DNA of 64,000 nucleotides from a virus. The notes below the pieces were generated by a model, which had not been told where the DNA came from, searched no databases, and worked only from the letters and a program-made list of their open reading frames with translations. The stretch covers positions 64,001 through 128,000 of IMG/VR virus record IMGVR_UViG_3300023184_000039. One strand, given 5' to 3'. Made by a program: the position numbers and the translations under genes. Of this stretch, positions 1-49,279 are shown piece by piece. Each line of letters opens with the position of its first letter. The stretch's first letter is position 1.

Positions 1-3000
1 TCGTTGCCGGTATCGGGAACAAAGACAGCGTTGGCGACATTGTTATTAGTGGTGCTTTTGCAAAGAGTTTGACCCGAAGGAAGCCACGCGTTGTTTGGGG
101 ACACAGTTGGAACGACCCAATCGGCAAAGTTCTTGAGATGTACGAAGTTCCACCAAATGATTCTCGCCTACCAGCAAAAATGAAGGCGGCCGGAATTGGT
201 GGCTTGTATGCCCGTGTTCAATTTAACTTGCAGTCAGATAAGGGCAAAGAGGCATTTGCGAGCGTTGCCTTTTTCGGTACAGACCAAGAGTGGTCAATCG
301 GATACAAAACAATAGATGCAATTTTTGACCCTAATCTTCAGGCAAATGTTCTTAAAGAAGTTGAACTGTATGAAGTTTCTCCAGTCCTTCACGGTGCCAA
401 TCAATTAACTGGAACCATCTCGGTTAAGAACCACCCAGTCAGTTCGGCGATGCCAACGATGATGCCAATGACAATGGACCAAATGCCTCGGATAGTTATT
501 GTTAGTTCTGATTCGATTGGCGAACCACAAGAAGAGCGCGAAGAAGACGATGAGCAGGAGTTAAATCTTTTTGCCGAGGGATTAGCGCAACCATTGACCG
601 ATGAGCAAAAAGCAAAGATACAAAGCGAACTTTCGGAAAGAACTGGTTCAAAGGTAGAAATAACCCATGCAACCGAGGGTTCAATAGTATTCAAGAGGAC
701 GACAACAGACGGAAAAACTTCCATGTACCGAGTTGGGTATCACACCCCAGACGATTACAACACCTTCATGTTCGGTAAGCCAGAAATTTATGCTGATGGG
801 GAAAAGCCTCAAGCCGAAACAGAAATTCAGTCAAAGCCAAACCCAGACACACCAGTTGTACTTGCTGATGGCGGGGCTTCTTACCGTGACAACGAACAAC
901 AGATGTCATCATTCCTCGGTTCTGAAGAGAATGTAAACCCATGGGGCAAATCATTAGCAATGCATCTCATTCAATTGCCGGGATATTCAATGAAGGATGC
1001 ATCGCAAAAACTTTCTTCAATTTTTGAATACCACAAACTTGATGTTGTTGAAACAAATAACGGTCTACTTGTAACCAGTCAGTTGTCATCGGATGCAATG
1101 GATGCATTGCAAGTTGCCGTAAAGGGGATTGGTCAAGCACTTGGTCAATCTGCTGGAACATTGCGTTCAATGTCAGAGGGATTTAACCCACATGCAATTG
1201 ACGGTGACAATGATGGTTTTGCACAAGACAACACTGCATTCATGCGTCCCTATATTCCAATCGGAAGTCTTGATATAAACCTTCCAGACATTGGTGGAAA
1301 AAAACGTAACTCTTCTGATTTATTGGACATGCCATCGCTGGGGTCAAAGATTCCCGATGGTGACCCATCACTACTGTCTGGCACTGAGCGCGAAGCCGCA
1401 CTTGCTGCAGGAAAATTAACTCCTCGCACGCGCGAAGACATGATGTTCCTTGCTGACAGAAGACCAAATAATCCAGGTCTCGCCAAGTATTGGGACATGA
1501 ATGACAATGAACTCACACTTGCTGGACAGCGACTCAAGAGTCAGCGTGCTTCTGTTTCAAGTAACGAGCGCGGTCCAATTGATGCGGAACTATACAAAAT
1601 CTCACATGAGTTCACTCGTCGCCAATCGTACGAGCAACAGTTTGGCAAGAAATTCACTCCGTCAAAAGACGGTAAGAAGAAACCAGAAAAACTAAATGCC
1701 GCTGGTCGTACCGCCGAACAAGAAGCTCAACGGATGGAAAAATTTAGAGCCGATGCCGATACCGAGATTGTTGATGATGCAAGAGCACTCGGTTCGCGCT
1801 CTGGGGAGAAACCGAAGAAACCAAATACTGCTGGTCGTACTGCCGAACAAGAAGAATTGCGAACGGAAAAATTGCGCGACGGTGCAAACGACGACCTGAT
1901 TACAGATGCATATGACCGTGGCGAACTTGGTTCACGTTCAAATCCAGAACAGAGTGCGGCAGGACAGAAAATAATTGAAGACATGCTGGTTGCTCGTGGT
2001 TACGGCAGAGAAGAAGCCGGCAACATGCTTGACAACTGGAACGAAAACGACAACGGCACAGAAGAAATTCTTAAGTCAAATAAAAATGACCTTCTTGCTT
2101 CAATTGAAGAACATTGGTCAAATGCACTTGACAGAATGAATGACGATAAAGAGTCTCGCAGTCTTGGCTCACGCAGTGGCGAAAACCCAACACCAGACTA
2201 CCAAGACCAGTTTGATTCCGTTGTTGAAAAATGGTTTGACTCGCTACCAGACAGCAAGGAACGCGTTCAGGAATATCTTGACGAAGGTTTTGGTAAACAG
2301 AACGCTCGTGAAACAGCAATAGAAAAATGGATGGAATTAGAACAGAGTGAAAATCCAGAACTGTTCATGGACGAAATCCAGAACAGAATTGACGACTTAA
2401 ATGAAAACAGATGGGACGACTACCAGTCTCGTAATCTGGGTTCGCGTTCAAAGCCACTTGGTTCACGTGGTGACAAAGACGAATCAAACCGAGAAGAGAC
2501 ATTGGCTCAACGCCTAAAAGAAATTGATGGACTTTCTGCTGAGGAAGGATACATACCAAGACGCGGTCCACAACCTAGCGACCTTCAGCGTGACATGTAC
2601 GAGGAATTTGCAAGGTACGGTAACCAAAACGATGTTTGGGATTATCTGAACACTAGATACAGTGTTGAGAAATCTGATTACAGTGAGCCAGGATACTATA
2701 CAAATGAAAACAATTACAATCTCAGTGGCGCAATAAAAGACTCCATGTCCGAAGAGGACATGCGGAACTTTTTGAAAGCAGTAGCCGAATATGAGGCCAG
2801 CCCAGACTACGACGTATACAAAAAGGGAGGCCCCCTATACGACGAGTTGAACAAAAATCCGAAGCCACTCGGTTCACGTAGTTCTGACCCAATTGATGAG
2901 GCAATGAAGAAGCCTTCCAAGCCAGCAAAAATTCGTGAATACGGCGCCGAAGAGTATCAAGAATTTAATACCAGCAGGAACAACGACCCTCAGCAAGGTT

Positions 3001-6000
3001 TTGATGAACCAGTCTCTGATGATTTCAAATCTCACGAAGATGGCTCAAAATTTGTTGGACATACGGTTACCTTTTCCGATGGAAGAAGGGGCGTCATCGT
3101 CCAGGGTTATTGGCCAGAATATGAAATTATAGACAACGATGAATATCCCCCATCATTCATCTTTGACAGGGTTGGGAGTATTGATATTGCCGTCACACAC
3201 GACAAAGATGGCAATCGCCTAGATAAAATTCAATATGAAAAAGCAAAATTTGACCAAGAGTCAGACCTTGCGATTGCAAGCGAAGAATATCCATTTGAAT
3301 ATTACAATGACCCCGAACTCGCAGATGAGTTTAGTAGGTCATCCGTTCAGATTGACGACAACAAGGTAAGCCTTGAGGAGGTAGAAAAACTTAAACAACG
3401 CCCGAGCAAGCCACTCGGTTCACGTGGTGCACGCAAATCAACAGATGACTACAAAGATTTGGTTGATTGGTTGCCAGACCCAACCTCTGGCTCAACGAGG
3501 AAATACACAGATACCACCGATGGCGCCCTCAAGGTTGCCGAGGACAGGTATGCACTCATTCATGCTCGTCGTGAAATTGCCAAGGAAATGGCAGAAGCGA
3601 ACGGCGTAGAGTGGAAAAAGAACATCAGTATTTATGATGTATCAAAAGATGATGACGATATAGACATATTGGAAGACCTAACCAGCAGAATCAACAAACT
3701 CAATGATTATGTGACTGCACAAGACAAAGAATACAGACAAATTCGCAACCAAGAGAAAAAGGTCTACAAATCTGATTCGGAACTATCAGATATTAAGAAT
3801 TCAATAGACCTCGCTCTTGAAGGTTACGAAGGTACCGAGCGTGATATTGAGGAATATTCGGGCGACAATGCCGTGGACTGGTTCACTACAACACCAGAGG
3901 AAAATACAAAAGAACTAGCAGATAGTTTGAGGGATGACTTGGAAGAGTTGACCATTCACGAGGACGAGAATGGAAACGAGACACTCGCTAGAGAGTATTC
4001 CGAAGATATTGCCGAAGCAAAGACCCTGATAGATAAGGGCACACCAGAAGATTTGCAAAAAGCAATAGAGGTAATGCAAGGTGCTATTCGCAAGCAATCT
4101 GATGATTACGATACTGCTGCAAGAAATTACGAAGCTGAGGGTGACGAACTCCTTGGCCGTGGGTATAGACCAGTTGACTTGCTAGACGAAGATGTGGACT
4201 TTGCCGATGACACCTGGGAGTATGACGACGATTTAGACATAAAGGATGTTGGCGGCAAATACTCCATAATTCCCGACGAACTCTATGGCCCAGAACCAAC
4301 AGACAGTCCTTTCCATAGTGGCAAGGAGTCAGTTGACTATTACATGGGTCGGTCCAAGAATGCCCAGTACCTGAAACAGCAGGGCGTAGGACGATATGCT
4401 CTTGGCTCACGCTCGCAAGCGGATTCAGAGGGGCAAAAACCACCACGCAGAGCGGTTCTGATGTCGATGGACCCCAAGAATTCCAAACTTGCAAGACAGA
4501 TTGATTACGACCCACAAAATGGTGACCTCACTGTTTACCGCAAAGATGGCAAAAAAGAAACATTCAAAAATGTTTCTTATGACCGTGTTCGTGCGGCCGG
4601 AGTAAAAGACGACCCAGATACGCTCATTAATGCACTTCAGAAAGAGCAGAACAAGCCACGAAGTGGCTCGCTTGGTTCACGTCAAACATTGCAAAAGATT
4701 GATGTTGGCGACAGCCAGGCAATAGACGACATCCATTACGACGATATGCGCAAAGAACTGCATGTCGGTTTTACATCCCCAGATGGAGAGACTCGTCGGT
4801 ACACATATTTTGGTGTTTCGCAAGATGAGGCAGATGCCATTGATGCATCACCAAGCAAGGGTCGTGCAATCAACGACATCAAGAGAAACCACGATGTGGA
4901 GAAGATTGATTCGTCTGCCCTCAAGAGAGTGACTGGGACCAGCGACGAGCGCATGATTAGCCCCCTTACTGATTCTTCTGGAAAATATCCAGGTATCGGC
5001 GAACCAATTGATGTATCTGGAAGTTCTGCTTTAGAGGATGCTTTCTACGACCCTCGTAAGAGAGAGTTGGTTGTCAAATACAAAGATGGTGGCTCGTATG
5101 TCTACGAGCAAGTTCTTCCCGGAGAAGCAAGTACATTAAATTCTGCCCCAAGTAAAGGTCGTGCAATTAACGACATTAAAAAGAATCACTTTGTTCGCAA
5201 GTATGAAAAAGAAGCCGGCTCGTCAAAACTTGAATGGAGCGAGACAAGCGGAACCAGTTCGGAAACTTCTGGTCGCTCGGGTCTTGACTACACAATTGAA
5301 AAACAAGCAGATGGAACCTTTTCTGCTGAGGCTGGAAAATCCACATACTCCTACCAAGACGGTCCCGATTTTGAAACCGTTGACACAGCAGACGGATTTG
5401 AGACAGAAGATGCCGCAAAGACATGGGCAGCACAACACGATTTTGCTATTATTGAAAGAGAATCAGGATACGACAAAATTGACAGAGACAATGAGAGGGC
5501 TCGTAGGAACCAACCAGTAGATGTTGGTTACAGTTCAGCACTCGAATCTGCAAGTTGGGATGAAAGAAACAATGAATTAAGCATCACGTACAAGGGTGGA
5601 AAGAAATACATCTACTCAGACTTCACTCAAGACGACCTTGACAAATTTGAAGCCAACCCAAGTAAGGGCAGAGCAGCAAACGAAGTCAAAAAGAATCACC
5701 CAGTCCGCAAGGCAGACAGTGGCCCACTTGGTTCACGTTCCACCGGGAAGTCATCTCCATCAAGAGCGGTCATTCCAACAATGCCAGACATTGATGGAAT
5801 GGATGAACAAGATGCATCGGACGCATTAGAAAAATCCAATGAAGAGTTGCTTGATTTTATTGATGAAACAGAAAAACTGGCAAGAATGTCGCGTGGTGAC
5901 GATAACTACAACAAATATTTCGGTGGTGCAGTTCCATACATAGAAGAACTATCCAAGAACCATGACGGTTCAGTTGAAGAGCGTAGTATTGCTTTGGAAC

Positions 6001-9000
6001 AAGCAATTGACCAAGCAATGTTATATAGTCAGGATGTTGGTTCTTTGGGTGACGAGCGTGAGTCTCGCGAACTCGGTTCGCGTTCTGGTGCAGGTATCTA
6101 TCGCAGTCCTGGGCGCGGTGCTCCACGACCAATTCGCAGAGATGAAGGACTCCGTGAATTGACCCCATTTGACGAACTCCCGCCAAAGGTTCAAGAACGT
6201 GTCAACGAAAGTGTCATGGAATATCTCTATGACGAAAATCGCGGCATGTATTATGACGCCCAAGACGGCGGCGTTGACATGGATGAATTCCTTTCAGATA
6301 ATGCAGGATTCCATCCATATGGATATGTGGCTTTGACAGACAAGGAAAGAGCCCAAATTCGCGAACAAATGATGGATAGGTTTGCACCAAGAGAATACAT
6401 GGATGAGTATGGCGACGAAGTAGATGCAATGATTGCCAACTGGGACAAAGAAGTGGAAGTAAACCCAGACGAAATGGTTGATTTGCTGGACAAGAACAAG
6501 GATGACTATGTTGAGGCCATTCGCGATGCATGGGATATTGAGATGGATAGGCAACTCAATTCTCGTGAACTCGGTTCACGTAGTTCGGGCAACATTGACG
6601 ATGTTGATGTAAGTGGGTCAAGTGCTCTTGATTCTGCCTACTACCATGCGCCAACAGGTGAACTCGTAGTTGGTTATGCCAATGGAAGAAGTTATGTCTA
6701 CGAAGGAGTATCCAACGAAGAATTCCAAAACTTTAATGACAGCCCGAGCAAGGGCAGGGCTATCAACGAAATCAAGCGCACACATAGCTTCCGAGTTGCC
6801 AGTGATGAGGACAGAAATGACCGCATTGCAGGTGACAGAAGTGAAAGTGATGCAATGTCAAGAGGTGCTCTTGAGTCAAACTGGAAGAGAATCGGTTCAG
6901 CAGAACAACAACGATATCTTTCCCGTGAAACCAATAGTGCAATAAGTTCTGGTTCTGGTCAATCAACGGACGAACTTCTTAATGCAGCAAAAATGAGAGC
7001 CATGGATGACAGAAACATGGCCGACCTAGAAATGCAAGCAGAGTCGGTTGGTTCTGGTGGACGAAGCATTGATGTTTCTTCGAGTCAGGCACTCAACCGA
7101 GTGACATACGATAAAGAAAACGAATTACTCTCTGTTGAATATCGCGGCCGTGACGGTAAGGGTGCTGGAACGGTTTACGAATACCAAGGTGTCCCAGAAG
7201 ATGTTGTAGCAAGCCTAGAGTCGTCAGACAGCCGGGGTGCAGCACTTCGTCAAATCAGAGACGACTACGAATTCACTACTCGTGATGCACTGCCAGATTC
7301 TGCATATGACAAAACATCAAGCAAGCCACTCGGTTCAAGCAGCTCCAACAATACCCCTAATTTCAATCGTGAAGACATGGGTAAAATTCTTGACCGCGTT
7401 AGACAAACGCGAGAATTCCAAGACCTTGAAGAAGTCCAAAATACTCTTGACGGATACATGGAGCGTTCTCCAAGCAGAACCCGTGCAAGTTATCCAGAAC
7501 TTGATAAAGAAGAAGTAAGGGTAAGCAAACTGCTTGTTGAGAAGCGCAACGAGATAATTGCGGAGATGCTTGATGCTGGTGAAATAACAGACATTTCTGG
7601 TAAGCGTAAGCCACTCGGTTCGGGTGGGCGAATGGGGCCACGACCAGATGATTCTTCATATGCTCGTGACCTTGCAGACCAACGAAACAGAGATTATGCA
7701 GCAGGGGCCTACGCAACAAACCCAATAGGTAGATTTGCAGAAAACACAGATGGTGATAAGCCGTGGGTTTCGTATGAAGACCTAGACGCCGATGTTCGTG
7801 GCGAAATTGAGCAATCATATTATGAAAGCAATCCTGGGAGCCCACGTCCTGGAGCACGAGACTGGGACTCAGATTATGCACAAAACGACTTTGAAATGAA
7901 CCCAGGGAAGTATGGGTATGCGGACGAGGCAAGTTTTGAAGAAGATTTTTCTGCCGATATGGCAAGGTTTGAATCTAGGCGCAAGCGACTTGGTTCAAGT
8001 AGTGGCTCTTGGCCAACACCAAGTGGATATGAGCCAGACGAGTTCAACATGAACGAAGCAATGTCGCAGATTGGTCGTGGCAATATTGCTGCAATCTCTG
8101 GTGGCAGAGTTGTTAAGCGTGGCAATGAAATGGTTCTCCCAGTCAACAGGAATCAACAAGTAGTTGTTGGTTACAACGGCGGCTCGGATACCTATTACGT
8201 TCGAGCAGAACAAATAATCACAAGTGGCAAAGATAAAGGTAAACACAAAATCCTCGCACAATGGGGTGAGGTTTATGCAGAAAATGTTGGAGAAACGGCA
8301 TACAACGCATCTTTGAAACCATCAATGCACAGTGAAGAAAATGCAGATTTCTGGAAGACATCAGACCTTATTCCAAAGAACACGCTTGTTGACGGTGAAA
8401 CCGGAGAGAAGATATCAAACGCAGGACCACTCGGCTCACGTGGTTCACCCGGAAGCACTCGCCCAGGAATGGGTGTCTATACCGAAAACAGCGACGACAT
8501 GCTTTACGACGAAGCAAACGGACCAAGAAACTCAATTAGGCGTCGTGGCAACTATTCGCCACCAAACCAAAGACTGCTTGCAAGACAAGACAGAGCAGAA
8601 GCAATTGAAGAACTTGCTCAAAAAAATATTACACGGATGGATATTCTCAGAAAGACAAACCCTAAGAGATTTAGGGAAATGCTCAAGCGAGAAAATATAG
8701 ACCGTAGGGATTGGCGAGAACTTGCATACAGAGATGCAACAAATGCAATTGACCAACTTGCTAGGTATCAAGAACGCCGAGCCAGCGGTAACGGCATTAG
8801 AAGACCGCCTGGCGGCAACCTCCCAAAAGTTGACCCGTCACCACGGGGTGACGGACTCTCGCCGTTTGCAAACCTGAAAGACGGCGACATCGTCACTCTT
8901 GATAACGGAGCATTTAAGGTAAACGGAACTGAAGAATTGCGTGGAGCACTTGGTTCTCGCGCATTTAATTACGGACCAGAAACAGAAGTGAAGACAAAAG

Positions 9001-11879
9001 CAGAAGCAATGAAGATGCTTACCGACCAATTGATAAAATCAATTGAGTCAGCAGAAACTGGTGAATGGAAAATGCCATGGAGGGTTACAACCCTTCCGAC
9101 AAACCCAACAACTGGAAAAATGTATTCTGGTTCCAACTTTATGATGTTGTCCCTTATTGGTGAAGCGCGTGGATACACAAGTTCACAATGGGGTGGATAC
9201 GGACAATGGGCAGACAAGGGTGGACAGGTTCGCAAGGGAGCCAAAGGTGTTCCCGTATTTGTTCCGATGCCGTTCAAGGGGAAGTTGGACCCAATAACAA
9301 ATGAAGAAGACGGGGGCGGAATGTCATGGAAAGTCATTCGGGTATTTAACCGTGACGAAGTAGACGGACTGCCAGAAGATTTTGCAAACCCACCAGTTCT
9401 TCCAGAGGGAACAAGAATTGACAACCTGGAAAAAACAATTTTGGAAGTTGCGCCAAAAATAACCAATAGTGGAAGTAGGGCTTTCTACCGACCAAGCGAA
9501 GATTCAATTACCGTTCCAGAATTTAAAAATTTTAAAAGTGCACGCGATTACTACAGTACGGTTGCACACGAACTGATGCACTGGACTGGAAGTGAGTCGC
9601 GTCTCAACAGAAAAAAAATGAATGCTTTTGGTACACCAGAGTATGCATACGAAGAACTTGTCGCCGAAATTGCATCAGCAATGTTTATTGGGGCTCATGG
9701 ACTTGAGCCAAACATTCAAGAAAACCATGGACCATACCTGAAGAGTTGGCTCGCGGTGCTCAAAGATGACCCAACTGCATTACAACGAGCAATTAAGGAT
9801 GCCCAGGCCGCATTTGATTACGTCAATGGTGCTTCCCCAAACCTCAGGGGTTTGATGGGTTCCGAAGATAATGGCGGTCTAGAGGCTTCTGCAAAAACAG
9901 TTGAAAAATTGTCAACTCCATTGGGTTCCATGACATCGCGCCCCGGCATAGGGCTTACAGCCAATGATGTTAGGGATATGGATAGCGACCAACTTGATTC
10001 CATAATGAACCATTTCGGTCCACAAAATGTATACAACGCTCGTCCCGGTGAGATAACGCAGGAAGATTATGAAGATATTGCAAAATTCCTAAATAACCTT
10101 ACAGCCGAAGAGGTAATGGGATTCAGTAATCGTGATAGGGGCACATCTAGACCATTGGGTTCACGTTCCAGTTCTGGCGTGACAGACGGAAAACCCAAGA
10201 GTGCTAGAGCAAAACTTGAAGATGTCCCAGTACCCCCAATGCCACGCCAGTACGACGAAAACAGGACCAGTTCCGATGCATACGAAGATACTGAAATGGA
10301 AATTAGCAGTTACCTAGAGTCTCTTTCAAATGCCATGAAAGAGATTGTTGGCGATGATGAGTTTGAAAAGACATTCAAGCCAAGAGTGGACAGCATTATT
10401 GATGACATGCGAGACGAGCGTTCCCAATATGCAGAACCGCCAGACTGGGCTCTGAACAGGGCATGGAAACTTCACAAGGAAATGGTTTCTCGGTCACGCA
10501 TGCGTGAGCCGCTTGGTTCTAGTAGTGGCAATGGACCGCTTGGTTCTCGCATGAATCTTAGCCAAAGTGAGAAAAACGAAATAATCGCAATGGCACGACA
10601 AATGAGAAAGTCAAACTTTGCCAAAAGTGTTGTTGCACAATATGACACAAACGGCGGACAATTATCGGATGGTCAATGGGCGGCATTGAACCGAATGACC
10701 TTGCGAGGTGGTGGGAGAAATGCAATGGGTTCTCGTAGTGAACCAAAAAAGCCAAGAACACCCAAAGGTGGATGGTCGCCAGAAGATAGGCAGAGATTTG
10801 CCGACAGAGATATTCTCAAGTCACGAAAAGTTCCAGGTAAGCGTCTCCCGGGACCAAGTGCATCCGAGTATGGTGCACTGGGTTCAAGGTCGGCATTTGT
10901 TAATGGACGAACAGTTGACATGGAGCCCAGACAGGACACCAAACCACTACGAATTGGATTGAGCGACATTGTATTCGGAGATGACGGGAAGGGTAAATCC
11001 TGGGCTTTGGCCGACCTTGCTAGAAGTAGTTCTGAATTCAGAAATATAACCCCACAGGAATTAATGGGAAGATACGGAATTTCCGAACGTGCCGCTCTTG
11101 ACATGAAGAAACCAGGTGCAAAAATACGTGACCCATACCTAGCAGACGAACTGACTAATGCCTTTGGTTTTACCCCATCCGAAATTTGGGGACGAAACAA
11201 TCCAACTGCCTACCAAAATGCAGATGGAAGCCTAGTGGACCTATCGGACCTGTTTGAAAAGCCAGATAAAGACTTTGACCCAACACTTGATGGTTCGCTA
11301 CCCGTGGTGGAACTTCCAGATGCTGATGCAACATTGGAAGGAATTTCTTCTGCCGATGAAGCACGGAAGGTACGCAAGAGGGTGGGTGGTTCGCGCAGTG
11401 GAAAACTATCAACGGGTTATGATGCCCAGGTTCTTCTTGATGAGATTGGATACAACGGCTCCCGAAGTAGGCGCGCCCTTGAGCAGGCTTTCCCAGAAAT
11501 ATCAGAAAAGCGCTGGAGGTCAATTGCGGGCAAGGATTCAACGACTGGATTGACAGTAAACGAAGTCAATTCAATCCTAAAAAGATTAAAGTCAAACAAA
11601 AAGGGGACTGATATTTTTGGGGAATCATTTGAATCTGGAACCCAAACCCCCGTTGCCTCAATTTTCAGAAACCCACTCATTGTTGCAAACATTGAAAAAC
11701 GGGGTGGAATGAATGCAGTCGCCGAAGCCTACAAAAAGGCAACTGGTAGGAGTATCTCAAGAGCGCAGTCGTACAGATTGAGGGATAGCAAGGACTCCAT
11801 CACATCAACGGAACTACGAGTGATGCTGAATGAACTCGGTATTTCCGTGGAAGAGTTTGATGCACGAAATAAGGGGTAG
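1..11879 (+). CDS. Giant polyvalent protein (5'-truncated): N-terminal HK97-type prohead protease fused to ~24 LGS(R)-separated modules including 6 KTSC domains, ArdC-like ssDNA-binding + zincin, and C-terminal HTH-like units
   Basis: Frame is open from the window edge (VAGIGNKDSVGDIVISGAFAKSL-TRRKPRVVWGH...), so the true start is upstream of 69. Prohead protease motifs: D-x-V-x-x-GAF, WGH, GLYARVQF, EWSIGY, LKEVELYEVSPV. KTSC repeats S-x-A-[IL]...Y-D...L-x-V-x-[YF]...Y-x-Y-x-x-V...S-[KR]-G-R at ~4470-7280. ArdC-like block W-x-x-PW...Y-S-G-x-N...G-G-x-V-R-K-G...AHELMHWTG...YAYEELVAE at ~8990-9850. Confidence 0.9.
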   Translation, partial: VAGIGNKDSVGDIVISGAFAKSLTRRKPRVVWGHSWNDPIGKVLEMYEVPPNDSRLPAKMKAAGIGGLYARVQFNLQSDKGKEAFASVAFFGTDQEWSIGYKTIDAIFDPNLQANVLKEVELYEVSPVLHGANQLTGTISVKNHPVSSAMPTMMPMTMDQMPRIVIVSSDSIGEPQEEREEDDEQELNLFAEGLAQPLTDEQKAKIQSELSERTGSKVEITHATEGSIVFKRTTTDGKTSMYRVGYHTPDDYNTFMFGKPEIYADGEKPQAETEIQSKPNPDTPVVLADGGASYRDNEQQMSSFLGSEENVNPWGKSLAMHLIQLPGYSMKDASQKLSSIFEYHKLDVVETNNGLLVTSQLSSDAMDALQVAVKGIGQALGQSAGTLRSMSEGFNPHAIDGDNDGFAQDNTAFMRPYIPIGSLDINLPDIGGKKRNSSDLLDMPSLGSKIPDGDPSLLSGTEREAALAAGKLTPRTREDMMFLADRRPNNPGLAKYWDMNDNELTLAGQRLKSQRASVSSNERGPIDAELYKISHEFTRRQSYEQQFGKKFTPSKDGKKKPEKLNAAGRTAEQEAQRMEKFRADADTEIVDDARALGSRSGEKPKKPNTAGRTAEQEELRTEKLRDGANDDLITDAYDRGELGSRSNPEQSAAGQKIIEDMLVARGYGREEAGNMLDNWNENDNGTEEILKSNKNDLLASIEEHWSNALDRMNDDKESRSLGSRSGENPTPDYQDQFDSVVEKWFDSLPDSKERVQEYLDEGFGKQNARETAIEKWMELEQSENPELFMDEIQNRIDDLNENRWDDYQSRNLGSRSKPLGSRGDKDESNREETLAQRLKEIDGLSAEEGYIPRRGPQPSDLQRDMYEEFARYGNQNDVWDYLNTRYSVEKSDYSEPGYYTNENNYNLSGAIKDSMSEEDMRNFLKAVAEYEASPDYDVYKKGGPLYDELNKNPKPLGSRSSDPIDEAMKKPSKPAKIREYGAEEYQEFNTSRNNDPQQGFDEPVSDDFKSHEDGSKFVGHTVTFSDGRRGVIVQGYWPEYEIIDNDEYPPSFIFDRVGSIDIAVTHDKDGNRLDKIQYEKAKFDQESDLAIASEEYPFEYYNDPELADEFSRSSVQIDDNKVSLEEVEKLKQRPSKPLGSRGARKSTDDYKDLVDWLPDPTSGSTRKYTDTTDGALKVAEDRYALIHARREIAKEMAEANGVEWKKNISIYDVSKDDDDIDILEDLTSRINKLNDYVTAQDKEYRQIRNQEKKVYKSDSELSDIKNSIDLALEGYEGTERDIEEYSGDNAVDWFTTTPEENTKELADSLRDDLEELTIHEDENGNETLAREYSEDIAEAKTLIDKGTPEDLQKAIEVMQGAIRKQSDDYDTAARNYEAEGDELLGRGYRPVDLLDEDVDFADDTWEYDDDLDIKDVGGKYSIIPDELYGPEPTDSPFHSGKESVDYYMGRSKNAQYLKQQGVGRYALGSRSQADSEGQKPPRRAVLMSMDPKNSKLARQIDYDPQNGDLTVYRKDGKKETFKNVSYDRVRAAGVKDDPDTLINALQKEQNKPRSGSLGSRQTLQKIDVGDSQAIDDIHYDDMRKELHVGFTSPDGETRRYTYFGVSQDEADAIDASPSKGRAINDIKRNHDVEKIDSSALKRVTGTSDERMISPLTDSSGKYPGIGEPIDVSGSSALEDAFYDPRKRELVVKYKDGGSYVYEQVLPGEASTLNSAPSKGRAINDIKKNHFVRKYEKEAGSSKLEWSETSGTSSETSGRSGLDYTIEKQADGTFSAEAGKSTYSYQDGPDFETVDTADGFETEDAAKTWAAQHDFAIIERESGYDKIDRDNERARRNQPVDVGYSSALESASWDERNNELSITYKGGKKYIYSDFTQDDLDKFEANPSKGRAANEVKKNHPVRKADSGPLGSRSTGKSSPSRAVIPTMPDIDGMDEQDASDALEKSNEELLDFIDETEKLARMSRGDDNYNKYFGGAVPYIEELSKNHDGSVEERSIALEQAIDQAMLYSQDVGSLGDERESRELGSRSGAGIYRSPGRGAPRPIRRDEGLRELTPFDELPPKVQERVNESVMEYLYDENRGMYYDAQDGGVDMDEFLSDNAGFHPYGYVALTDKERAQIREQMMDRFAPREYMDEYGDEVDAMIANWDKEVEVNPDEMVDLLDKNKDDYVEAIRDAWDIEMDRQLNSRELGSRSSGNIDDVDVSGSSALDSAYYHAPTGELVVGYANGRSYVYEGVSNEEFQNFNDSPSKGRAINEIKRTHSFRVASDEDRNDRIAGDRSESDAMSRGALESNWKRIGSAEQQRYLSRETNSAISSGSGQSTDELLNAAKMRAMDDRNMADLEMQAESVGSGGRSIDVSSSQALNRVTYDKENELLSVEYRGRDGKGAGTVYEYQGVPEDVVASLESSDSRGAALRQIRDDYEFTTRDALPDSAYDKTSSKPLGSSSSNNTPNFNREDMGKILDRVRQTREFQDLEEVQNTLDGYMERSPSRTRASYPELDKEEVRVSKLLVEKRNEIIAEMLDAGEITDISGKRKPLGSGGRMGPRPDDSSYARDLADQRNRDYAAGAYATNPIGRFAENTDGDKPWVSYEDLDADVRGEIEQSYYESNPGSPRPGARDWDSDYAQNDFEMNPGKYGYADEASFEEDFSADMARFESRRKRLGSSSGSWPTPSGYEPDEFNMNEAMSQIGRGNIAAISGGRVVKRGNEMVLPVNRNQQVVVGYNGGSDTYYVRAEQIITSGKDKGKHKILAQWGEVYAENVGETAYNASLKPSMHSEENADFWKTSDLIPKNTLVDGETGEKISNAGPLGSRGSPGSTRPGMGVYTENSDDMLYDEANGPRNSIRRRGNYSPPNQRLLARQDRAEAIEELAQKNITRMDILRKTNPKRFREMLKRENIDRRDWRELAYRDATNAIDQLARYQERRASGNGIRRPPGGNLPKVDPSPRGDGLSPFANLKDGDIVTLDNGAFKVNGTEELRGALGSRAFNYGPETEVKTKAEAMKMLTDQLIKSIESAETGEWKMPWRVTTLPTNPTTGKMYSGSNFMMLSLIGEARGYTSSQWGGYGQWADKGGQVRKGAKGVPVFVPMPFKGKLDPITNEEDGGGMSWKVIRVFNRDEVDGLPEDFANPPVLPEGTRIDNLEKTILEVAPKITNSGSRAFYRPSEDSITVPEFKNFKSARDYYSTVAHELMHWTGSESRLNRKKMNAFGTPEYAYEELVAEIASAMFIGAHGLEPNIQENHGPYLKSWLAVLKDDPTALQRAIKDAQAAFDYVNGASPNLRGLMGSEDNGGLEASAKTVEKLSTPLGSMTSRPGIGLTANDVRDMDSDQLDSIMNHFGPQNVYNARPGEITQEDYEDIAKFLNNLTAEEVMGFSNRDRGTSRPLGSRSSSGVTDGKPKSARAKLEDVPVPPMPRQYDENRTSSDAYEDTEMEISSYLESLSNAMKEIVGDDEFEKTFKPRVDSIIDDMRDERSQYAEPPDWALNRAWKLHKEMVSRSRMREPLGSSSGNGPLGSRMNLSQSEKNEIIAMARQMRKSNFAKSVVAQYDTNGGQLSDGQWAALNRMTLRGGGRNAMGSRSEPKKPRTPKGGWSPEDRQRFADRDILKSRKVPGKRLPGPSASEYGALGSRSAFVNGRTVDMEPRQDTKPLRIGLSDIVFGDDGKGKSWALADLARSSSEFRNITPQELMGRYGISERAALDMKKPGAKIRDPYLADELTNAFGFTPSEIWGRNNPTAYQNADGSLVDLSDLFEKPDKDFDPTLDGSLPVVELPDADATLEGISSADEARKVRKRVGGSRSGKLSTGYDAQVLLDEIGYNGSRSRRALEQAFPEISEKRWRSIAGKDSTTGLTVNEVNSILKRLKSNKKGTDIFGESFESGTQTPVASIFRNPLIVANIEKRGGMNAVAEAYKKATGRSISRAQSYRLRDSKDSITSTELRVMLNELGISVEEFDARNKG

Positions 11880-21558: not shown

Positions 21559-22197
21559 ATGAAAAAAGAAACAGAAGAACAGGCATATGCACTGAGAATG
21601 GCAATCCAACTTGGGTGTGCTGGTGCCCATAAGGGTCCAGATGGCAAATGGATGCCGTGTAAAGACATGTCCGAAATGGAGCGACTGTCAAATGCCGCCG
21701 AGGAATCGTCATGGACTAATGACAACTCAATTTCTTCCCTAAGACGCAGGGAGCAAAGTGCGAGACTTTACGGGAAATCGGCTCTCATGGAATCAATTGA
21801 AAAAGGGAAAAAGCGCAAACCAAAAAAGAAGGGATGGGAAAAACTTACCGAGAAACCACTTCCCGTTGGGGGCATTGGAACACTCCCCAGTGGGGGCTTG
21901 TATGGCATGACATCAAAGGGTTTGGCTGTACCCATCTCGGCGCCACGTGATGCCGACCCAGATGTTTTTTCTGACCCTGATTCGGCACGGATGCGAGCCA
22001 GACAACTTGACTGCATCGGCATAAGTCGAAGGGTTTCAAGGAGCGGGAAAACGATATGGACACCCTGCACCAATATGAGCGACTATGCAAGGTCTGCCGG
22101 AACAACGGCATTGGGCAAAAAAAACAAGAAAGAAAAAGAGCGCAGGGTGGTCAGAACAATCGTTAATGAGGAACTAAAAAAACGTACAAAACGGTAG
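21559..22197 (+). CDS. Head-module protein with two A-x-x-L-[GD]-C-x-G...W-x-P-C repeats
   Basis: AIQLGCAGAH...WMPC and ARQLDCIG...WTPC; directly upstream of the capsid gene. Confidence 0.6.
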   Translation: MKKETEEQAYALRMAIQLGCAGAHKGPDGKWMPCKDMSEMERLSNAAEESSWTNDNSISSLRRREQSARLYGKSALMESIEKGKKRKPKKKGWEKLTEKPLPVGGIGTLPSGGLYGMTSKGLAVPISAPRDADPDVFSDPDSARMRARQLDCIGISRRVSRSGKTIWTPCTNMSDYARSAGTTALGKKNKKEKERRVVRTIVNEELKKRTKR

Positions 22198-22313: not shown

Positions 22314-23615
22314 ATGGCACAGGAAAATTTGAAGGAGCTCCAAGGAGCACTTCGTCAAAAAATGGCAGACAATAAGTCAATCGCCGACTCGTTCAAGGTC
22401 GAAGAGGGCACAGTTGTCATTAACCAAAAGCAGAAGTCAGCTTTTGATGCAAACATGAAAGACATCAAAGAACTCAAGGGTTTGATTGATGGCATGGAAG
22501 CAATGGAGCAAGTTCAGCAGTGGGGCGCACAAGCATCAGACACATCTGTTGCAGCAGCCGCAGCCGCTGGTTACTCAATCCCTAAGCAACAACTTGAATC
22601 AATCGGCGAGTCATTCTTGGCTTCAGCTGAATTCAAGGCTCTTGCTGGTGGTCGTAACGGCGCAAACATGCCAGCACCATTCCAGTACAACGGAAGATTT
22701 GATACCCCTGGTGGTTACAGCCAAAAGGACGCTTACACAGCAATGCCAAGCGGCTTTCCAACACAGTTCGGTTCAGTTCAACGTGACCCAATCGTTATCC
22801 CACCACGTCGCACAAAGCGAGTTCGTGACCTATTCCCAGTTCGTACGACCACATCGGCAATCATTGAGTATTTCCGCATGACTGGTTTCACCAACAACGC
22901 AGGCATGGTTCCAGAGCGCAACGGCGATACATTTGCCGCGAAGCCACAATCAAGCATGACGTTTGAAGGTGTTCAGACATCGACACGGACAATGGCACAC
23001 TGGGAAGCAGCACACAGAAATGTTCTTGCTGACGAACCACAGTTGCGTTCAATCATTGACAACGAGTTGATGTACGGTCTTCGTCTCCAAGAGGATTACC
23101 AAATCCTTAACGGTGACGGCAGTGGAGAAAACCTTCAGGGCATTTTGACCACTCCTGGCATTCAGACCTACAACTGGTCAATGGGTGCAACCTTGCCAGT
23201 CAAGGACACCAAGGCCGATGCAATCCGTCGTGCTGCAACCCTCTCCTTCTTGGCTTACTACGAGCCATCTGGTGTTGTCTTGCATCCAAACGATTGGGAA
23301 GACATCGAAATGACCAAGGACAGCAACGGTCAGTACCTGATTGCAGTTTCGGTTGCATTGGGTGGAGAACCAAAGGTATGGCGCTTGCCAATCGTTGAGA
23401 CTCCAGCAATGACTGAAGGAGTTGCTCTTATCGGTTCATTCGGTCAGGGTGCACAAATCTACGACCGTGAGCAGGCCAGCATTCGCATTAGCGAACAACA
23501 TGCTGACTTCTTCATTCGCAACGCAATCGTCATCTTGGCCGAGCAACGTCTCGCCCTTGCTGTCAAGCGTCCAGAGTCGTTTGTGAAACTAACCTTCAAT
23601 AACGCACCTGCTTGA
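22314..23615 (+). CDS. Major capsid protein, HK97 fold, with N-terminal coiled-coil delta domain
   Basis: VRDLFPV-x-T-T-S-x-x-I-E-Y, AKPQS, LAD-x-PQLRSIID-x-EL, ILNGDG-x-G-x-NL-x-GI, F-x-RN-x-I-x-ILAE-x-RLALAV-x-RPESF; strong SD; terminator follows. Confidence 0.95.
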   Translation: MAQENLKELQGALRQKMADNKSIADSFKVEEGTVVINQKQKSAFDANMKDIKELKGLIDGMEAMEQVQQWGAQASDTSVAAAAAAGYSIPKQQLESIGESFLASAEFKALAGGRNGANMPAPFQYNGRFDTPGGYSQKDAYTAMPSGFPTQFGSVQRDPIVIPPRRTKRVRDLFPVRTTTSAIIEYFRMTGFTNNAGMVPERNGDTFAAKPQSSMTFEGVQTSTRTMAHWEAAHRNVLADEPQLRSIIDNELMYGLRLQEDYQILNGDGSGENLQGILTTPGIQTYNWSMGATLPVKDTKADAIRRAATLSFLAYYEPSGVVLHPNDWEDIEMTKDSNGQYLIAVSVALGGEPKVWRLPIVETPAMTEGVALIGSFGQGAQIYDREQASIRISEQHADFFIRNAIVILAEQRLALAVKRPESFVKLTFNNAPA

Positions 23616-27009: not shown

Positions 27010-27084
27010 GGCTGACGAGGTAGGGGTCGAACCTACGACAAGCGGATTAACAGTCCGCTGCTCTGCCAACTGAGCTACTCGTCA
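27009..27084 (-). tRNA. tRNA-Asn (GTT) with encoded CCA
   Basis: Reverse complement TGACGAG TA GCTC AGTTGGCA GAGC A GCGGA CT GTT AA TCCGC TTGTC GTAGG TTCGACC CCTAC CTCGTCA G CCA folds as a cloverleaf. Confidence 0.95.
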
Positions 27085-27113
27085 TTGATTTATTGAAGAC
27101 TAGTTCATCTTTG

Positions 27114-27185
27114 TATCCCATGGAGGAATCGAACTTCCATCGATTGCTTAGAAGGCAATTGCTTTATCCATTAAGCTAATGGGAT
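27114..27185 (-). tRNA. tRNA-Arg (TCT), no encoded CCA
   Basis: Reverse complement ATCCCAT TA GCTT AATGGATA AAGC A ATTGC CT TCT AA GCAAT CGAT GGAAG TTCGATT CCTCC ATGGGAT A; one A-C mismatch in the T stem. Confidence 0.85.
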
Positions 27186-38524: not shown

Positions 38525-41500
38525 ATGAATAACCTTGAGATACTGCTTGATGTCAAAGAACTAGGTCGTTACCAACGTAAGGTAATGACCCCATTAGATG
38601 AAGCATTTGACCCTGATGCTATTGATGGTGATGGTGATGGATTAGTTCAAGATAGAACTCCATTTGAGAGACCTGCCATTATCACTGCGATAACAGAGAC
38701 AGCACAAAGGATAAGTCAAGGTATCCGTGATGCTGGTCGTCTCAATCAGAAGCGCTCACACAATGTACATCGTGAGAGGCTAAGGGGTAAGAGCCATAGT
38801 GAGATAGCAGAGACACTAGTACCTAATGACTATGCCTCACTAGCATCATCCCTTACAGAGATGGCTATACAAGACCTAGGTGTTGATGCCTCACCTGCTG
38901 CCATACAAACTTGGATACAGGGGAAAGTATTTGACCTCACGGGTGATGCTACGGGTGATGTATTTGACTTCACACCTAAGCACATACGTAAGTTGCGTAA
39001 GACAGTAGAGAAGCACCTTGATGAACTACCTATGTTCAGACGACTAGTAGATGACTATGGTATGCCCCCCTTCTTCATACTAAAGAAAGGTGACTTCTCT
39101 GGTATCACATCACACGGCTTTGGTATAGGTGTGACTACTGGTGGTATGGGGTGGACAGATGGTAAGGGCAATCGCATACCCATACTTCGTTCCATATCAC
39201 TCAAACTTGGCTACTTTGATAAGTCTGGTGGTAGCAATAAGACAAAGAGATGGCTTACTGATACTGGTGTTAGGGGTACTGTGCTACACGAGTATGGTCA
39301 CTACCTAGCAGGTGTGCTGTATGACGACATTGTGAGTAACAAGTACGGTAAGTGGGAGGGTAGTCCTGATGTAGTGGACTTTGCTAGGTACATCAATATG
39401 GACTCCTTCAGTATCTCTACTCAGAACAGATTTCCCAATGTAGATGGCAAGGTAGGTAAGTCAATACCCGATGTGTTCTCTGCTATGTTCCATAAGCCTG
39501 AGTGGGATGAGGCTTGGAGTAAAGGCGACCTTCCTGATGAACTACCTCACGTACTTTCTTTCTATTCAGAAACAAACCCTTCAGAACAGTTTGCTGAAGG
39601 AATGGCGGCCCTTCTTTCTACCGACCCCAAACAACACAAACTTGTGTCACCCGGATTTGAGGATATGGTTAAACAACTTGTTGGATTAGAGACTGATGTA
39701 CCCTTTCAGTCTCAAGGTAGTAAATACAATGTAGACACCCTTGACTTACCACAAGTGACACAAGCACTTGGTTCTAGAGGTAGAGACTTCACAACACCTT
39801 CAGGAAACAAAGAGTTATGGCATCCAATCACCAAAGATATGGATGCTACAGAACTAGCAGAACGAATACATCCATCTAGTGCTGAAGAACTCATCTCAAT
39901 AATGGCTGAAGAAAACCACAGAATAACACCCACCTCATCCATCGAAGACCACAAGGCTTTGGTAGGACAAGTTCTTATGGAACTGTTTGAGGTCAAGTCA
40001 GTAAAAGAACTTGACTCAATGATGGATTTGTCAAAGAGGGGAGACAGGGTTGGGGCAATGGAACAACTCCTTCTAGACAACCCATCTTTGATGCTCCTAC
40101 ACAATCAGTATGGAGCGCCACCCCTCATACACCTCACACCAGAAGCATATGATGATGCTGCCAGAAGCCTAGAAGGAGAGTTTGCTGGAATACACGTCAT
40201 AGACCCACGACTCAATATTGGAACAATACTCCTATCACCCAACACCACCGACCTATTAGATAATTACAACACACCACTCCCACTAACTGGTGAAACTTTT
40301 CAGGAACTGCTTGACAACCGGCCATTGGGACAACGACTTGTTCTCTCTTATGCTAAGTGGAGAGGAAAGTATCCCAAGTCAGTGACATATATGTCTATTG
40401 GTAATAATGTTGAGCAACTCTACGCACACGAATATGCTCACTACCTACACGAACAAATGACGGCATCTCTCCCAATGGAGGGAAACCGTGAAAGACGAGC
40501 ATTACTCAGGGCATACTTGAGCGCAACTTGGGAGGAATTCTTTGCTGCTGTTGACAGACCAGATTGGGCTGAAGCATACACAAACAGAAGGAAAAAGGAT
40601 TTACCAGACGACTATCCGTTTGTTGACAGCGCATATGCCTTCTCAAACCCGTTAGAAATGTTCGCTGAGTCTTTCGCTGCTGCTACGGCTAGTGACCCAG
40701 CAATAAGGGGCGCAGTCAGTCCAGAAATGAACAGACAGATGGCGATGATGCTTGGACTTGACCCAGAACAAGCACTATATGAGCAATTAGTAGCCAATGA
40801 TGATGTAGTTAGCGCCTCACTTGACATATCAAGACCACTCGGCTCTAGGAGTAAGAAAAAGGACCGAGAGTTCTGGGAAAAAATGTATCCAGACAGAACC
40901 GCAGCAGAGTGGAAAGCGATTGAGGAAAAAATACAGCAAGAAAGAGATAATACCTATCTAGGTAGACCACTCGGGTCTGCCCCAAGTTTGACTGCTTCAG
41001 AGGCTATTCGTTCGCTTGATGAGGTAGCAAAGATAGAAGAACGTGACCTCATCACTACTGATGACCCAACACTACGACCCGGAGTACGAAAACTTGACAC
41101 AAAGGCTTGGGATGGCAAGGACATCTATCAAACAGCAGATGCTGGTGATGCGCTTGCCCTCATAGCAAACGGTCATTACGTTGAGATGACACACGAAGAA
41201 GGATTGTGGCTCGCCCTCGCAGACATAGGCAAGAGATGGAAAGAAATACAGAAGAGCAGCGGCAAGGAAATAAAAACACTCAATGCTTGTTTGTTTATGA
41301 CCGTTGATGCCAATGGTAAGTCAAACAACCTGTTCTGTCGAGGACACCACGATATTGCTCGATTGTCAATGCCACAAGTTGGTGGATATATGACAAAAGA
41401 AAATCAGGTCTTGCTACAAGCCTGGAGGTCAGGACTTACCGAGAACAGAGGTGGTGCTCACGATGCCTTCATTGGCGGCAATAAAGCCGTAGAAGCAATG

Positions 41501-49140: not shown

Positions 49141-49279
49141 TTTCTGTCAGACCTAATCATCAACACGGCCCAAATCAGCGTGAGAAATAATACGAAATAG
49201 AACATCTTGCTCACGCTCTCGCCTCCGAGTGGTTATGAATCAATACATAAATCATAACACCATTGAGATAGCGAGATAA

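What the first reader, a model, noticed from the sequence alone, without database searches (positions are those of the whole stretch)
1..11879. Prohead protease heads a ~4,000-aa polyprotein punctuated by ~24 L-G-S(-R) motifs: candidate self-processing virion cargo system
Seen: the HK97-type maturation protease, normally a small protein, continues in frame for >3,800 aa. About 24 LGS motifs follow, mostly [PAES]-L-G-S-R-[SG] (RALGSRS, GELGSRS, KPLGSRG, YALGSRS, GPLGSRS, RELGSRS, GALGSRA, TPLGSMT...). They fall between recognisable domains, never inside them: the ArdC block is bracketed by GALGSR and TPLGSM, and KTSC blocks start right after LGSR. Codons vary (ctcggttcgcgc, cttggctcacgc, ctgggttcgcgt, ttgggttcacgt), so selection acts on the peptide. 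Established: T4 gp21 and phiKZ gp175 cut head-internal proteins at short 3-residue consensus sites, and phage/plasmid polyvalent proteins carry ArdC and zincin domains. Inference: this is a viral polyprotein packaged via the protease/scaffold and cut at LGS into ~25 pre-made effectors ejected with the DNA.
Basis: partly seen in the sequence, partly recalled or inferred. Interest (0 to 1): 0.92.

Follow-up and report, generated by a model that had tools for sequence, protein, structure and literature searches.

The report
Protease-headed phage cargo polyprotein
An uncultured phage of actinobacteria makes its only capsid-maturation protease as the front end of a 3,984-residue chain of swappable protein modules joined by a short Leu-Gly-Ser(-Arg) signal. 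The signal is probably where the chain is cut into separate anti-host proteins inside the virus head, but no cut has been shown.

Summary
The ORF (window -76 to 11879, 3,984 aa) starts with an intact S78 prohead protease, the only one in this complete 140.6-kb genome. It carries 24 LGS against 1.9 expected; 22 are [PA]-L-G-S-[RSGM] and 2 N-terminal ones are chance-level.

New evidence:
- All 8 sites tested lie in low-confidence linkers of a structure model, and a whole ArdC fold fills one inter-site segment.
- At least 239 giant homologues exist, all from metagenomes. Of 127 examined, 112 have their own recurrent hydrophobic-x-Ser "dialect" (GFASR, GLAS, RGMASR, LSSG, GMRSR). LGS is private to this phage.
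- At least 9 of our sites align column for column with F[GAS]S or LAS in relatives.
- In four whole genomes, every protein carrying a conserved 23-residue DGDxDG tag uses that genome's dialect.
- Modules are reshuffled between relatives, with breakpoints near the sites.

Best reading (about 0.55): a tag-targeted capsid cargo system cut at hydrophobic-x-Ser by the fused protease. Cleavage, packaging and ejection are all inferred. The capsid protein lacks LGS, and no protease residue tracks the dialect.

This scan's first readers noted the same family (GFASR dialect) in other genomes, and follow-ups described analogous motif-punctuated polyproteins. I found no publication describing it.

The parts
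1..11879 (+). Giant ORF of 3,984 aa. The true ATG is 76 nt upstream of the window, directly after the portal gene.
1..440 (+). S78 (HK97-type) prohead protease domain. His60, Ser124 and His156 (full-length numbering) are invariant in the family.
   Evidence: Pfam PF04586; invariant columns in alignment A1; it is the only S78 in the genome
1158..1256 (+). Conserved tag F-[DN]-P-x-A-x-D-G-D-x-D-G-x-x-Q-[DE]-x-T-x-[FY]-x-R-P. It is a linear motif in a predicted disordered stretch, upstream of the site array.
   Evidence: BLASTP against giant 2, E 7e-6; alignment A4; model 2 has pLDDT<50 over aa 406-459
1788..10889 (+). Array of 22 [SR]-[GRK]-[PA]-L-G-S-[R]-[SG] sites plus one MGSRS. They separate about 23 segments of 7 to 352 aa.
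4680..7337 (+). Segments holding the KTSC domains: three KTSC in aa 1560-1911 and two in aa 2193-2445.
   Evidence: and the sequence
8958..9929 (+). A complete ArdC-like module (ArdC-N plus zincin MPTase) that exactly fills one inter-site segment (aa 2986-3309).
   Evidence: Pfam; Foldseek hit to 6I89, E 1.5e-16, TM 0.78, 35% identity
21559..22197 (+). 212-aa DUF3721 protein directly upstream of the capsid gene. In relatives its homologue continues into the tag and motif-punctuated cargo.
22314..23615 (+). HK97-fold major capsid protein with a coiled-coil-like N-terminus. The conserved F-L-A-S at aa 101-104 (nt 22614-22625) is a candidate maturation site. There is no LGS.
38525..46606 (+). Second polyvalent giant (2,693 aa) without a protease. 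It has the tag at aa 20-52 (nt 38582-38680), 7 LGS sites, and WYL, RNase_T and GNAT domains.

Best explanation
This is a capsid-cargo polyprotein system of a large clade of uncultured actinobacterial phages.

The phage's single HK97-type (S78, assemblin-fold) prohead protease is made as the N-terminal head of a 3,984-aa chain. After the protease come two small domains, a conserved 23-residue DGDxDG tag, and then about 22 cassettes. These include five KTSC domains, a complete ArdC anti-restriction module and many unknown modules. The cassettes are joined by an unstructured [SR]-[GRK]-[PA]-L-G-S-R-[SG] linker.

Proposed mechanism, all inferred:
1. The tag brings the chain, and the protease-less second giant that carries the same tag, into the assembling prohead.
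2. The protease becomes active there and cuts at hydrophobic-x-Ser. Either this follows the P3-hydrophobic pattern of T4 gp21 (L/I-x-E), or the cut falls before the Ser as in herpesvirus assemblin (hydrophobic-x-Ala|Ser).
3. The released modules leave with the DNA and act on the host early in infection.

Shown here:
- The motif is real, lies in linkers and is selected.
- It is positionally conserved while its spelling changes between lineages.
- In each genome the spelling is shared by all tag-bearing proteins.
- The cassettes are units of shuffling.
For: 1. Enrichment: 24 LGS against 1.9 expected, with a shuffle maximum of 8. Outside the two giants there are 16 LGS in about 38,000 aa and a single LGSR.
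2. Linker location: 8 of 8 sites lie in pLDDT<50 segments covering 36% of a 911-aa model, p about 3e-4. ArdC fills exactly one segment.
3. Family: at least 239 giant S78-headed homologues and at least 572 IMG/VR loci. 112 of 127 have an x-x-Ser tripeptide with 6 or more copies and at least 5 times the expected count: FAS 29, LSS 28, LAS 15, FSS 8, MRS 8, LGS 1.
4. Positional equivalence: at least 9 of our LGS sites align with F[GAS]S or LAS in the closest relatives, and the Ser is invariant.
5. Within-genome covariation across separate proteins. Counts are for the protease giant plus the other tagged proteins: G000 LGS 24+7; G001 GFASRG 13+5; G002 GLAS 9+14, in three other tagged proteins; G004 RGMASR 9+3.
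6. The tag is invariant across the family. It occurs in 153 representative clusters, including many protease-less N-tagged giants with the same dialects.
7. The S78 domain is the only universal protease. Many members lack MPTase yet keep a motif (Pfam lists). There is one S78 and no ClpP in this complete genome.
8. The Ser codon family is frozen as TCN in four genomes: 29/29, 21/24, 19/19 and 10/11. This fits long purifying selection on that Ser.
9. Precedent: assemblin-fold prohead proteases cut head-internal proteins at 3-residue motifs (A-x-E in SPN3US; phiKZ, T4), and T4 uses a capsid-targeting sequence (PMC5694885; PMC10052503).
Against: - There is no direct evidence of cleavage, encapsidation or ejection.
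- The major capsid protein and the portal lack LGS. The capsid protein's conserved F-[LI]-x-S fits the general pattern but does not co-vary with the dialect.
- The dialect changed about 27 times on the N-terminal tree while the protease domain stayed about 85% identical. Protease columns that correlate with dialect (aa 131, 133, 88) did not follow it in 3 of 4 independent switches. A co-evolving S78 specificity is therefore not demonstrated.
- Codon families at the sites are more uniform than the gene background. Cassette breakpoints cluster at the sites. Part of the uniformity could therefore come from recombination rather than from a reader.
[quoted passage not shown] From my own knowledge it is about 3,500 aa and is packaged uncleaved. 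A giant does not have to be cut to be packaged.
- A 440-kDa cargo per protease copy is a heavy load if tens of copies enter each prohead.
Confidence: 0.55

Rival explanations
1. The giant is packaged and ejected intact, or nearly so, like N4 virion RNA polymerase. The hydrophobic-x-Ser linker would then be a hinge or threading element, or it would be cut only after injection, by the cargo's own zincin domains (MPTase) or a host protease, to release modules in the host.
For: Iyer et al. propose MPTase-driven processing of polyvalent proteins, possibly after injection (PMC5512222). That N4 vRNAP is packaged uncleaved is from my own knowledge. This giant carries an ArdC-type MPTase, and giant 2 has a weak zincin (ATLF) match. 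No protease residue tracks the dialect.
Against: Many family members keep a recurrent motif but have no MPTase in the giant. A mere hinge would not need an invariant Ser or a genome-wide shared spelling. A host protease would not explain spellings that differ between closely related phages.
Confidence: 0.17
2. This is a cytoplasmic polyprotein expression strategy. The chain is cut in the infected cell, by the S78 domain or another enzyme, to give equimolar soluble proteins. Only the N-terminal protease-plus-tag fragment enters proheads, and the cargo is never packaged.
For: The first true site (aa 596 in P0001 numbering) lies after the protease, the tag and a helical domain. Cutting there would leave a conventional-sized protease with a targeting region. 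The gene is a late-operon gene, and anti-restriction modules could also act on superinfecting or progeny DNA.
Against: Protease-less giants carry the same tag at their extreme N-terminus followed directly by cargo. That makes sense if the tag drags cargo somewhere. ArdC-type anti-restriction is useful at DNA entry (an inference from the known role of ArdC). HK97-type proteases are held inactive until they are concentrated in the prohead (established knowledge, not tested here).
Confidence: 0.13
3. The linker is mainly a DNA-level cassette junction. It would be a short conserved sequence that promotes module shuffling and is homogenised within a genome by recombination, with no dedicated peptide reader.
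For: Codon families at the sites are significantly more uniform than the gene background. BLAST homology blocks end within 15 aa of a site in 47.5% of cases against 19% at random, and module order is permuted between relatives. The dialect is labile, with about 27 changes.
Against: Third codon positions vary freely (GGT/GGC/GGG; TCA/TCG/TCT/TCC; CTC/CTT/CTG/TTG). The conserved core is only about 12-15 nt, which is short for homologous exchange. Sites flanked by conserved orthologous sequence changed FAS to LGS in parallel. The invariant element is an amino acid (Ser) across dialects whose nucleotides differ.
Confidence: 0.07

Closest known systems
Polyvalent proteins of phages and conjugative elements (Iyer, Burroughs, Anand, de Souza, Aravind 2017, PMC5512222)
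   Same: Multidomain conflict proteins encoded next to virion genes. They contain ArdC-N and MPTase, are proposed to be delivered with the DNA, and are proposed to be processed into units.
   Different: That paper reports the assemblin-like peptidase as rare and 'always at the C termini', and assigns processing to MPTase. Here the S78 protease is N-terminal and universal. The chains reach 2,200-5,700 aa. A strict, lineage-specific hydrophobic-x-Ser punctuation and a shared DGDxDG tag are present. Neither of these came up in my term searches of that paper.
T4 gp21 with internal proteins and Alt; phiKZ gp175 and SPN3US gp245 with ejection proteins
   Same: An assemblin-fold prohead protease cuts head-internal proteins at a 3-residue motif after a targeting sequence has brought them into the prohead. 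The cargo is ejected (PMC5694885, PMC10052503).
   Different: Those proteases are S77-type and cut after Glu (L/I-x-E, A/S/G-x-E), mostly removing N-terminal propeptides from separate proteins. Here the protease is S78, the motif ends in Ser, there are 22 internal sites in one chain, and the protease is fused to its presumed substrate.
Herpesvirus protease-scaffold precursor (pUL26 / pUL80a, assemblin, MEROPS S21)
   Same: An N-terminal Ser-His-His protease of the same fold is fused to a long C-terminal extension that targets it into the procapsid. It self-cleaves at hydrophobic-x-Ala|Ser release and maturation sites.
   Different: The herpesvirus precursor has two sites and a scaffold as its extension. 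Here there are about 22 sites and the extension is a string of unrelated effector-like cassettes.
HK97 gp4 prohead protease (Pfam PF04586)
   Same: Same family, and the same gene position after the portal. It is the sole maturation protease.
   Different: gp4 is about 225 aa with a short C-terminal capsid-targeting tail. Here the region after the domain is about 3,800 aa.
N4 virion RNA polymerase
   Same: A giant polyvalent protein that contains an MPTase domain and is carried in the virion (PMC5512222).
   Different: From my own knowledge it is about 3,500 aa and is packaged and ejected uncleaved. It has no prohead protease and no punctuating motif.

Membership tests
Peptidase S78 (HK97-type prohead protease) | Match to PF04586 above the curated cut-off | tested here: met
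   31 bits in the truncated window copy and 39 bits for the full domain, against a cut-off of 21.
Peptidase S78 (HK97-type prohead protease) | Conserved catalytic Ser and His residues | tested here: met
   His60 (VVWGH), Ser124 (EWSIG) and His156 (VLHGAN) are invariant in 17 diverse members.
Peptidase S78 (HK97-type prohead protease) | Head-module position, between the portal and the major capsid protein | tested here: met
   Portal immediately upstream and HK97-fold capsid protein 10.4 kb downstream.
Peptidase S78 (HK97-type prohead protease) | Proteolytic activity on head proteins | not testable with these tools
   Needs biochemistry or proteomics.
Polyvalent proteins (Iyer et al. 2017) | Several unrelated conflict-type domains in one phage-encoded polypeptide next to virion genes | tested here: met
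   KTSC x5, ArdC-N and MPTase-PolyVal. Relatives carry UvrD helicase, sigma-70 region 4, pentapeptide and WYL+RNase_T domains.
Polyvalent proteins (Iyer et al. 2017) | Assemblin-like peptidase, when present, lies at the C-terminus | tested here: not met
   The protease is at the N-terminus in all 127 members examined. The statement in the paper was read.
T4-type capsid-targeting / internal-protein system | Short N-terminal targeting peptide removed by an S77 protease at L/I-x-E | tested here: not met
   No S77 was found, although the control for that search was silent. The motif ends in Ser, not Glu. The tag is internal in giant 1 (aa 415-447 full length) and N-proximal in giant 2. This is a functional analogy only.
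T4-type capsid-targeting / internal-protein system | Physical binding of the tag to the capsid or scaffold | not tested
   No valid test could be completed with these tools (see Tried and rejected). It needs pull-down assays or cryo-EM.
ArdC anti-restriction proteins | ArdC-N ssDNA-binding domain plus a zincin metalloprotease domain with the ArdC fold | tested here: met
   Pfam PF08401 and PF18818. Foldseek hit to 6I89, E 1.5e-16, TM 0.78, 35% identity.

The most novel reading that the evidence does not exclude
A widespread, so far uncultured clade of actinobacterial phages has a general two-part code for loading and releasing capsid cargo. A 23-residue DGDxDG tag marks any protein for encapsidation. 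A hydrophobic-x-Ser linker, whose spelling drifts as a genome-wide dialect, tells the fused S78 prohead protease where to cut. Dozens of freely shuffled anti-host cassettes could then be delivered pre-made with the DNA. This would be a polyprotein strategy in tailed phages, with the maturation protease itself as the carrier.
Probability: 0.45. Interest if true: 0.85.

Novelty: new variant of a known kind. Interest (0 to 1): 0.75.

Why it matters
If the reading is right, it shows how a tailed phage can pack a large, rapidly evolving arsenal into its head with only two short peptide signals. The arsenal here includes anti-restriction modules and, in relatives, helicases, sigma-factor-like, DNA-binding and nuclease modules.

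It would extend prohead-protease processing from trimming a few propeptides to cutting up polyproteins of 2,000-5,700 residues. It would also give a natural, portable tag-plus-linker system for loading foreign proteins into HK97-type capsids.

The lineage-specific dialects offer a natural experiment on how protease sites and readers evolve together. The family contains hundreds of members with no cultured representative, so dozens of cassettes of unknown function become candidates for early-acting anti-host proteins of freshwater or marine actinobacteria.

Tried and rejected
- A megablast of the 12-kb region against 50,697 phage records found no match. A tblastn of the N-terminal 620 aa found only the protease domain (25-30% coverage) in isolates such as Gordonia phages DalanDe and GMA6. 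There is therefore no cultured relative to borrow proteomics from.
- Four literature searches found no description of N-terminal S78 giant polyproteins or of the motif.
- Complex prediction of the tag (A4) with the major capsid protein (A3) gave no verdict and is not used as evidence either way.
- Protease columns aa 131, 133 and 88 looked associated with the P2 dialect. The independent-pairs test found only 4 independent switches, and the columns changed in at most 1 of them. I rejected this as evidence.
- Covariation between the capsid protein's F-[LI]-x-S and the cargo dialect was looked for in five relatives and not found.
- Our protease differs from residues fixed in the GFAS group at only two positions: N78 (Gly in the GFAS group, but variable across the family) and D105, where all 126 other members have Glu. 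This is a single observation, noted as a lead and not used.
- The Peptidase_S77 search of the genome was uninformative because its control genomes were silent.
- I considered a lipobox or sortase-type signal and Gly-Ser autoproteolysis by N-to-O acyl shift. I rejected both because the sites lie in unstructured linkers between unrelated folds and their spelling varies by lineage.
Full report
**What is there**

The window is bases 64001-128000 of a 140,645-bp virus record with direct terminal repeats, rated complete. The finding's frame is open from window 3 to 11879. It begins at an ATG 76 nt upstream of the window, giving 3,984 aa.

The gene order is: large terminase (minus strand), portal, this giant, then proteins of 522, 1,376, 135, 213, 666, 282 (DUF6321) and 212 (DUF3721) aa, then an HK97-fold major capsid protein.

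Pfam finds Peptidase_S78 at the N-terminus, five KTSC domains, ArdC-N and the polyvalent-protein zincin MPTase. PHROGs agrees: head maturation protease and anti-restriction protein.

Three WhiB genes point to an actinobacterial host. The closest cultured capsid relatives are Gordonia myoviruses at about 46% identity.

**The motif is real**

LGS occurs 24 times against 1.9 expected, and the maximum in 2,000 shuffles was 8. Seventeen are LGSR.

Over 29 sites in the two giants, the extended consensus is [SR]-[GRK]-[PA]-L-G-S-R-[SG]-[SG].

The rest of the proteome (about 40,600 aa) has 23 LGS. Seven of them are in one other giant ORF (window 38525-46606, 2,693 aa; WYL, RNase_T and GNAT domains) with the same flavour. 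Only one LGSR lies outside the two giants.

The two N-terminal LGS (aa 305 and 446) lack the Arg, are not conserved in relatives, and equal the chance expectation.

**The sites are in linkers**

An AlphaFold2 model of aa 2790-3700 was built with 29 aligned homologues and has a mean pLDDT of 63.6. It shows confident blocks separated by low-confidence stretches.

All seven LGS and one MGSRS in that region fall in pLDDT<50 segments, which make up 36% of residues (p about 3e-4 to 8e-4).

The block between the sites at aa 2983 and 3307 superposes on plasmid R388 ArdC (6I89; E 1.5e-16, TM 0.78, 35% identity). One complete known protein therefore fills one inter-site segment.

Segments are not always single domains. 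Three KTSC domains share one segment and two share another.

**The family and its dialects**

The N-terminal 620 aa finds at least 239 proteins of 2,191-6,972 aa and at least 572 IMG/VR loci. All have the protease at the N-terminus.

The cargo varies widely: ArdC/MPTase/KTSC, UvrD-type helicases, sigma-70 region 4, pentapeptide repeats, WYL plus RNase_T, and many HTH domains.

None of these is from a cultured phage. Isolates match only the protease domain.

The key result is that 112 of 127 members have their own over-represented x-x-Ser tripeptide, with at least 6 copies and at least 5 times the expected count. FAS (as DGFASRG) occurs in 29 members, LSS (as [KR]LSSG[RK]) in 28, LAS (GLAS) in 15, FSS in 8, MRS (GMRSR) in 8, and MAS (RGMASR) in a few. 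LGS occurs only here.

In an alignment with the closest relatives, at least 9 of our LGS sites align column for column with F[GAS]S or LAS, within conserved flanks. One example is PLGSRMNLS against GFASRMNLS.

The invariant element is Ser. The first position is Leu, Phe or Met, and the second is Gly, Ala, Ser or Arg.

**A shared tag, and genome-wide dialects**

The two giants share one 33-residue stretch (52% identity, E 7e-6). Its core is F-[DN]-P-x-A-x-D-G-D-x-D-G-x-x-Q-[DE]-x-T-x-[FY]-x-R-P, and it is invariant across the family.

In a model of the N-terminal 600 aa, the layout is: protease (1-154), linker, a small alpha/beta domain (222-292), linker, a second small domain (345-405), then the tag in a disordered stretch (406-459), then a helical domain (480-580). 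The first true site follows that helical domain.

I fetched three whole relatives of 93, 132 and 86 kb. In every genome, each tag-bearing protein carries that genome's own spelling:

| Genome | Spelling | Copies in the protease giant | Copies in other tagged proteins |
|---|---|---|---|
| G000 (this phage) | LGS | 24 | 7 |
| G001 | GFASRG | 13 | 5 |
| G002 | GLAS | 9 | 14 (in three other tagged proteins) |
| G004 | RGMASR | 9 | 3 |

In G002 and G004, the protein next to the capsid gene is a homologue of our 212-aa DUF3721 protein that continues into the tag and punctuated cargo.

A search of 1.84 billion representative proteins with the tag found 153 clusters. Many are protease-less, N-terminally tagged giants of 2,000-3,750 aa with FAS, LAS, LSS, LRS or FSS punctuation.

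**Cassettes shuffle**

BLAST homology blocks between our protein and nine relatives end within 15 aa of a site in 47.5% of cases, against 19% for random positions. The median distance is 17 aa against 51.

Module order is permuted between relatives:
- Our aa 1138-1451 corresponds to aa 4184-4494 in P0017.
- Our ArdC module at aa 2991-3309 corresponds to aa 878-1198 in P0015.
- Our aa 2018-2195 corresponds to aa 4430-4608 in P0022, at 81% identity.

**Which reader?**

The S78 domain is the only protease common to all members. Many members lack MPTase. This complete genome has one S78 and no ClpP. His60, Ser124 and His156 are invariant.

A hydrophobic-x-Ser pattern resembles the short motifs read by other assemblin-fold proteases:
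- A-x-E in SPN3US, with analogous motifs after Glu in phiKZ and T4 (PMC5694885).
- Hydrophobic-x-Ala|Ser in herpesviruses (from established knowledge).

The capsid protein has a coiled-coil-like N-terminus. It ends near a conserved F-[LI]-x-S at aa 101-104, spelled FLAS, FLDS or FINS in six phages. This fits the general pattern.

That site does not follow the cargo dialect, and neither the capsid protein nor the portal has LGS.

The dialect changed about 27 times on a tree of the N-terminal region while the protease stayed about 85% identical. Protease columns that looked associated with dialect failed the independent-pairs test.

A changing S78 specificity is therefore not shown. A permissive protease with sites that drift and are homogenised is equally possible.

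**Codons**

Codon families, however, are restricted compared with the gene background:

| Residue | Codons at the sites | Gene background |
|---|---|---|
| Leu | CTY 25/29 | CTT+CTC 0.50 |
| Gly | GGT 22/29, no GGA | GGT 0.38, GGA 0.27 |
| Ser | TCN 29/29 | 0.67 |
| Arg | CGY 17/21 | 0.39 |

The invariant Ser is also TCN in the relatives: 21/24, 19/19 and 10/11. Phe TTY, Leu CTY and Met ATG are single-step neighbours.

This fits old sites under strong purifying selection on Ser. It is also compatible with some spread of linkers by recombination.

**Comparison with what is known**

Iyer et al. 2017 defined polyvalent proteins and proposed that they are delivered with the DNA and processed, mainly by MPTase. 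[quoted passage not shown] In term searches of that paper I found no mention of a punctuating motif or a shared tag.

T4, phiKZ and SPN3US show that prohead proteases cut internal proteins at short motifs after targeting. There the cuts mostly remove N-terminal propeptides from separate proteins.

The herpesvirus protease-scaffold precursor has the same N-terminal protease topology.

I found no paper on this family.

Within this scan, first readers noted the same family with the GFASR dialect in other genomes. Follow-ups described analogous motif-punctuated phage polyproteins with other motifs.

**Verdict**

The motif behaves as a functional, genome-wide, linker-located peptide signal tied to a conserved tag and to the phage's only prohead protease. 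Cleavage, packaging and ejection remain inferences.

I class it as a new variant of a known kind: polyvalent proteins combined with prohead-protease processing.

Noticed in passing
window 23741-24397 (+): A 218-aa ferritin-like protein (PF00210, E 7e-15) is encoded directly downstream of the HK97-fold capsid gene. Ferritin-like proteins are classic cargo of encapsulins, which share that fold (from my own knowledge). This protein has no tag and no LGS.
   Followed up: no
window 21559-22197 (+); G002 49004-51421 and G004 77409-79778: Our 212-aa DUF3721 protein next to the capsid gene is, in two relatives, the N-terminal third of a roughly 800-aa protein that continues into the DGDxDG tag and dialect-punctuated cargo. 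Our copy stops before the tag.
   Followed up: partly
window 289-291 (giant aa 105, full-length numbering): Our protease has Asp where all 126 other family members examined have Glu (FNLQS-D-KGKEAF). Our phage is also the only one with the LGS dialect. This is a single coincidence, so a lead only.
   Followed up: partly
proteins P0150, P0165, P0175, P0177, P0186, P0208, P0241: Small proteins of 134-211 aa in metagenomes carry two tandem copies of the DGDxDG tag about 25-30 residues apart and little else.
   Followed up: no
window 13543-17673 (+): A 1,376-aa protein between the giant and the capsid gene is conserved in relatives (37% identity over its full length in G001). It has no Pfam or PHROG match, no tag and no LGS site.
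   Followed up: partly
genome 2501-2692, 115540-115731 and 121767-121952 (the last two are window 51540-51731 and 57767-57952, minus strand): There are three WhiB-family genes in one phage genome of 45% G+C. This suggests a low-G+C actinobacterial host.
   Followed up: partly
window 26182-27069 (-), 37343-38113 (+), 35071-37185 (+), 27009-27185 (-): The window also holds two TauD-family Fe(II)/2-oxoglutarate dioxygenases, a 704-aa C5 cytosine DNA methylase, and tRNA-Asn(GTT) plus tRNA-Arg(TCT).
   Followed up: no
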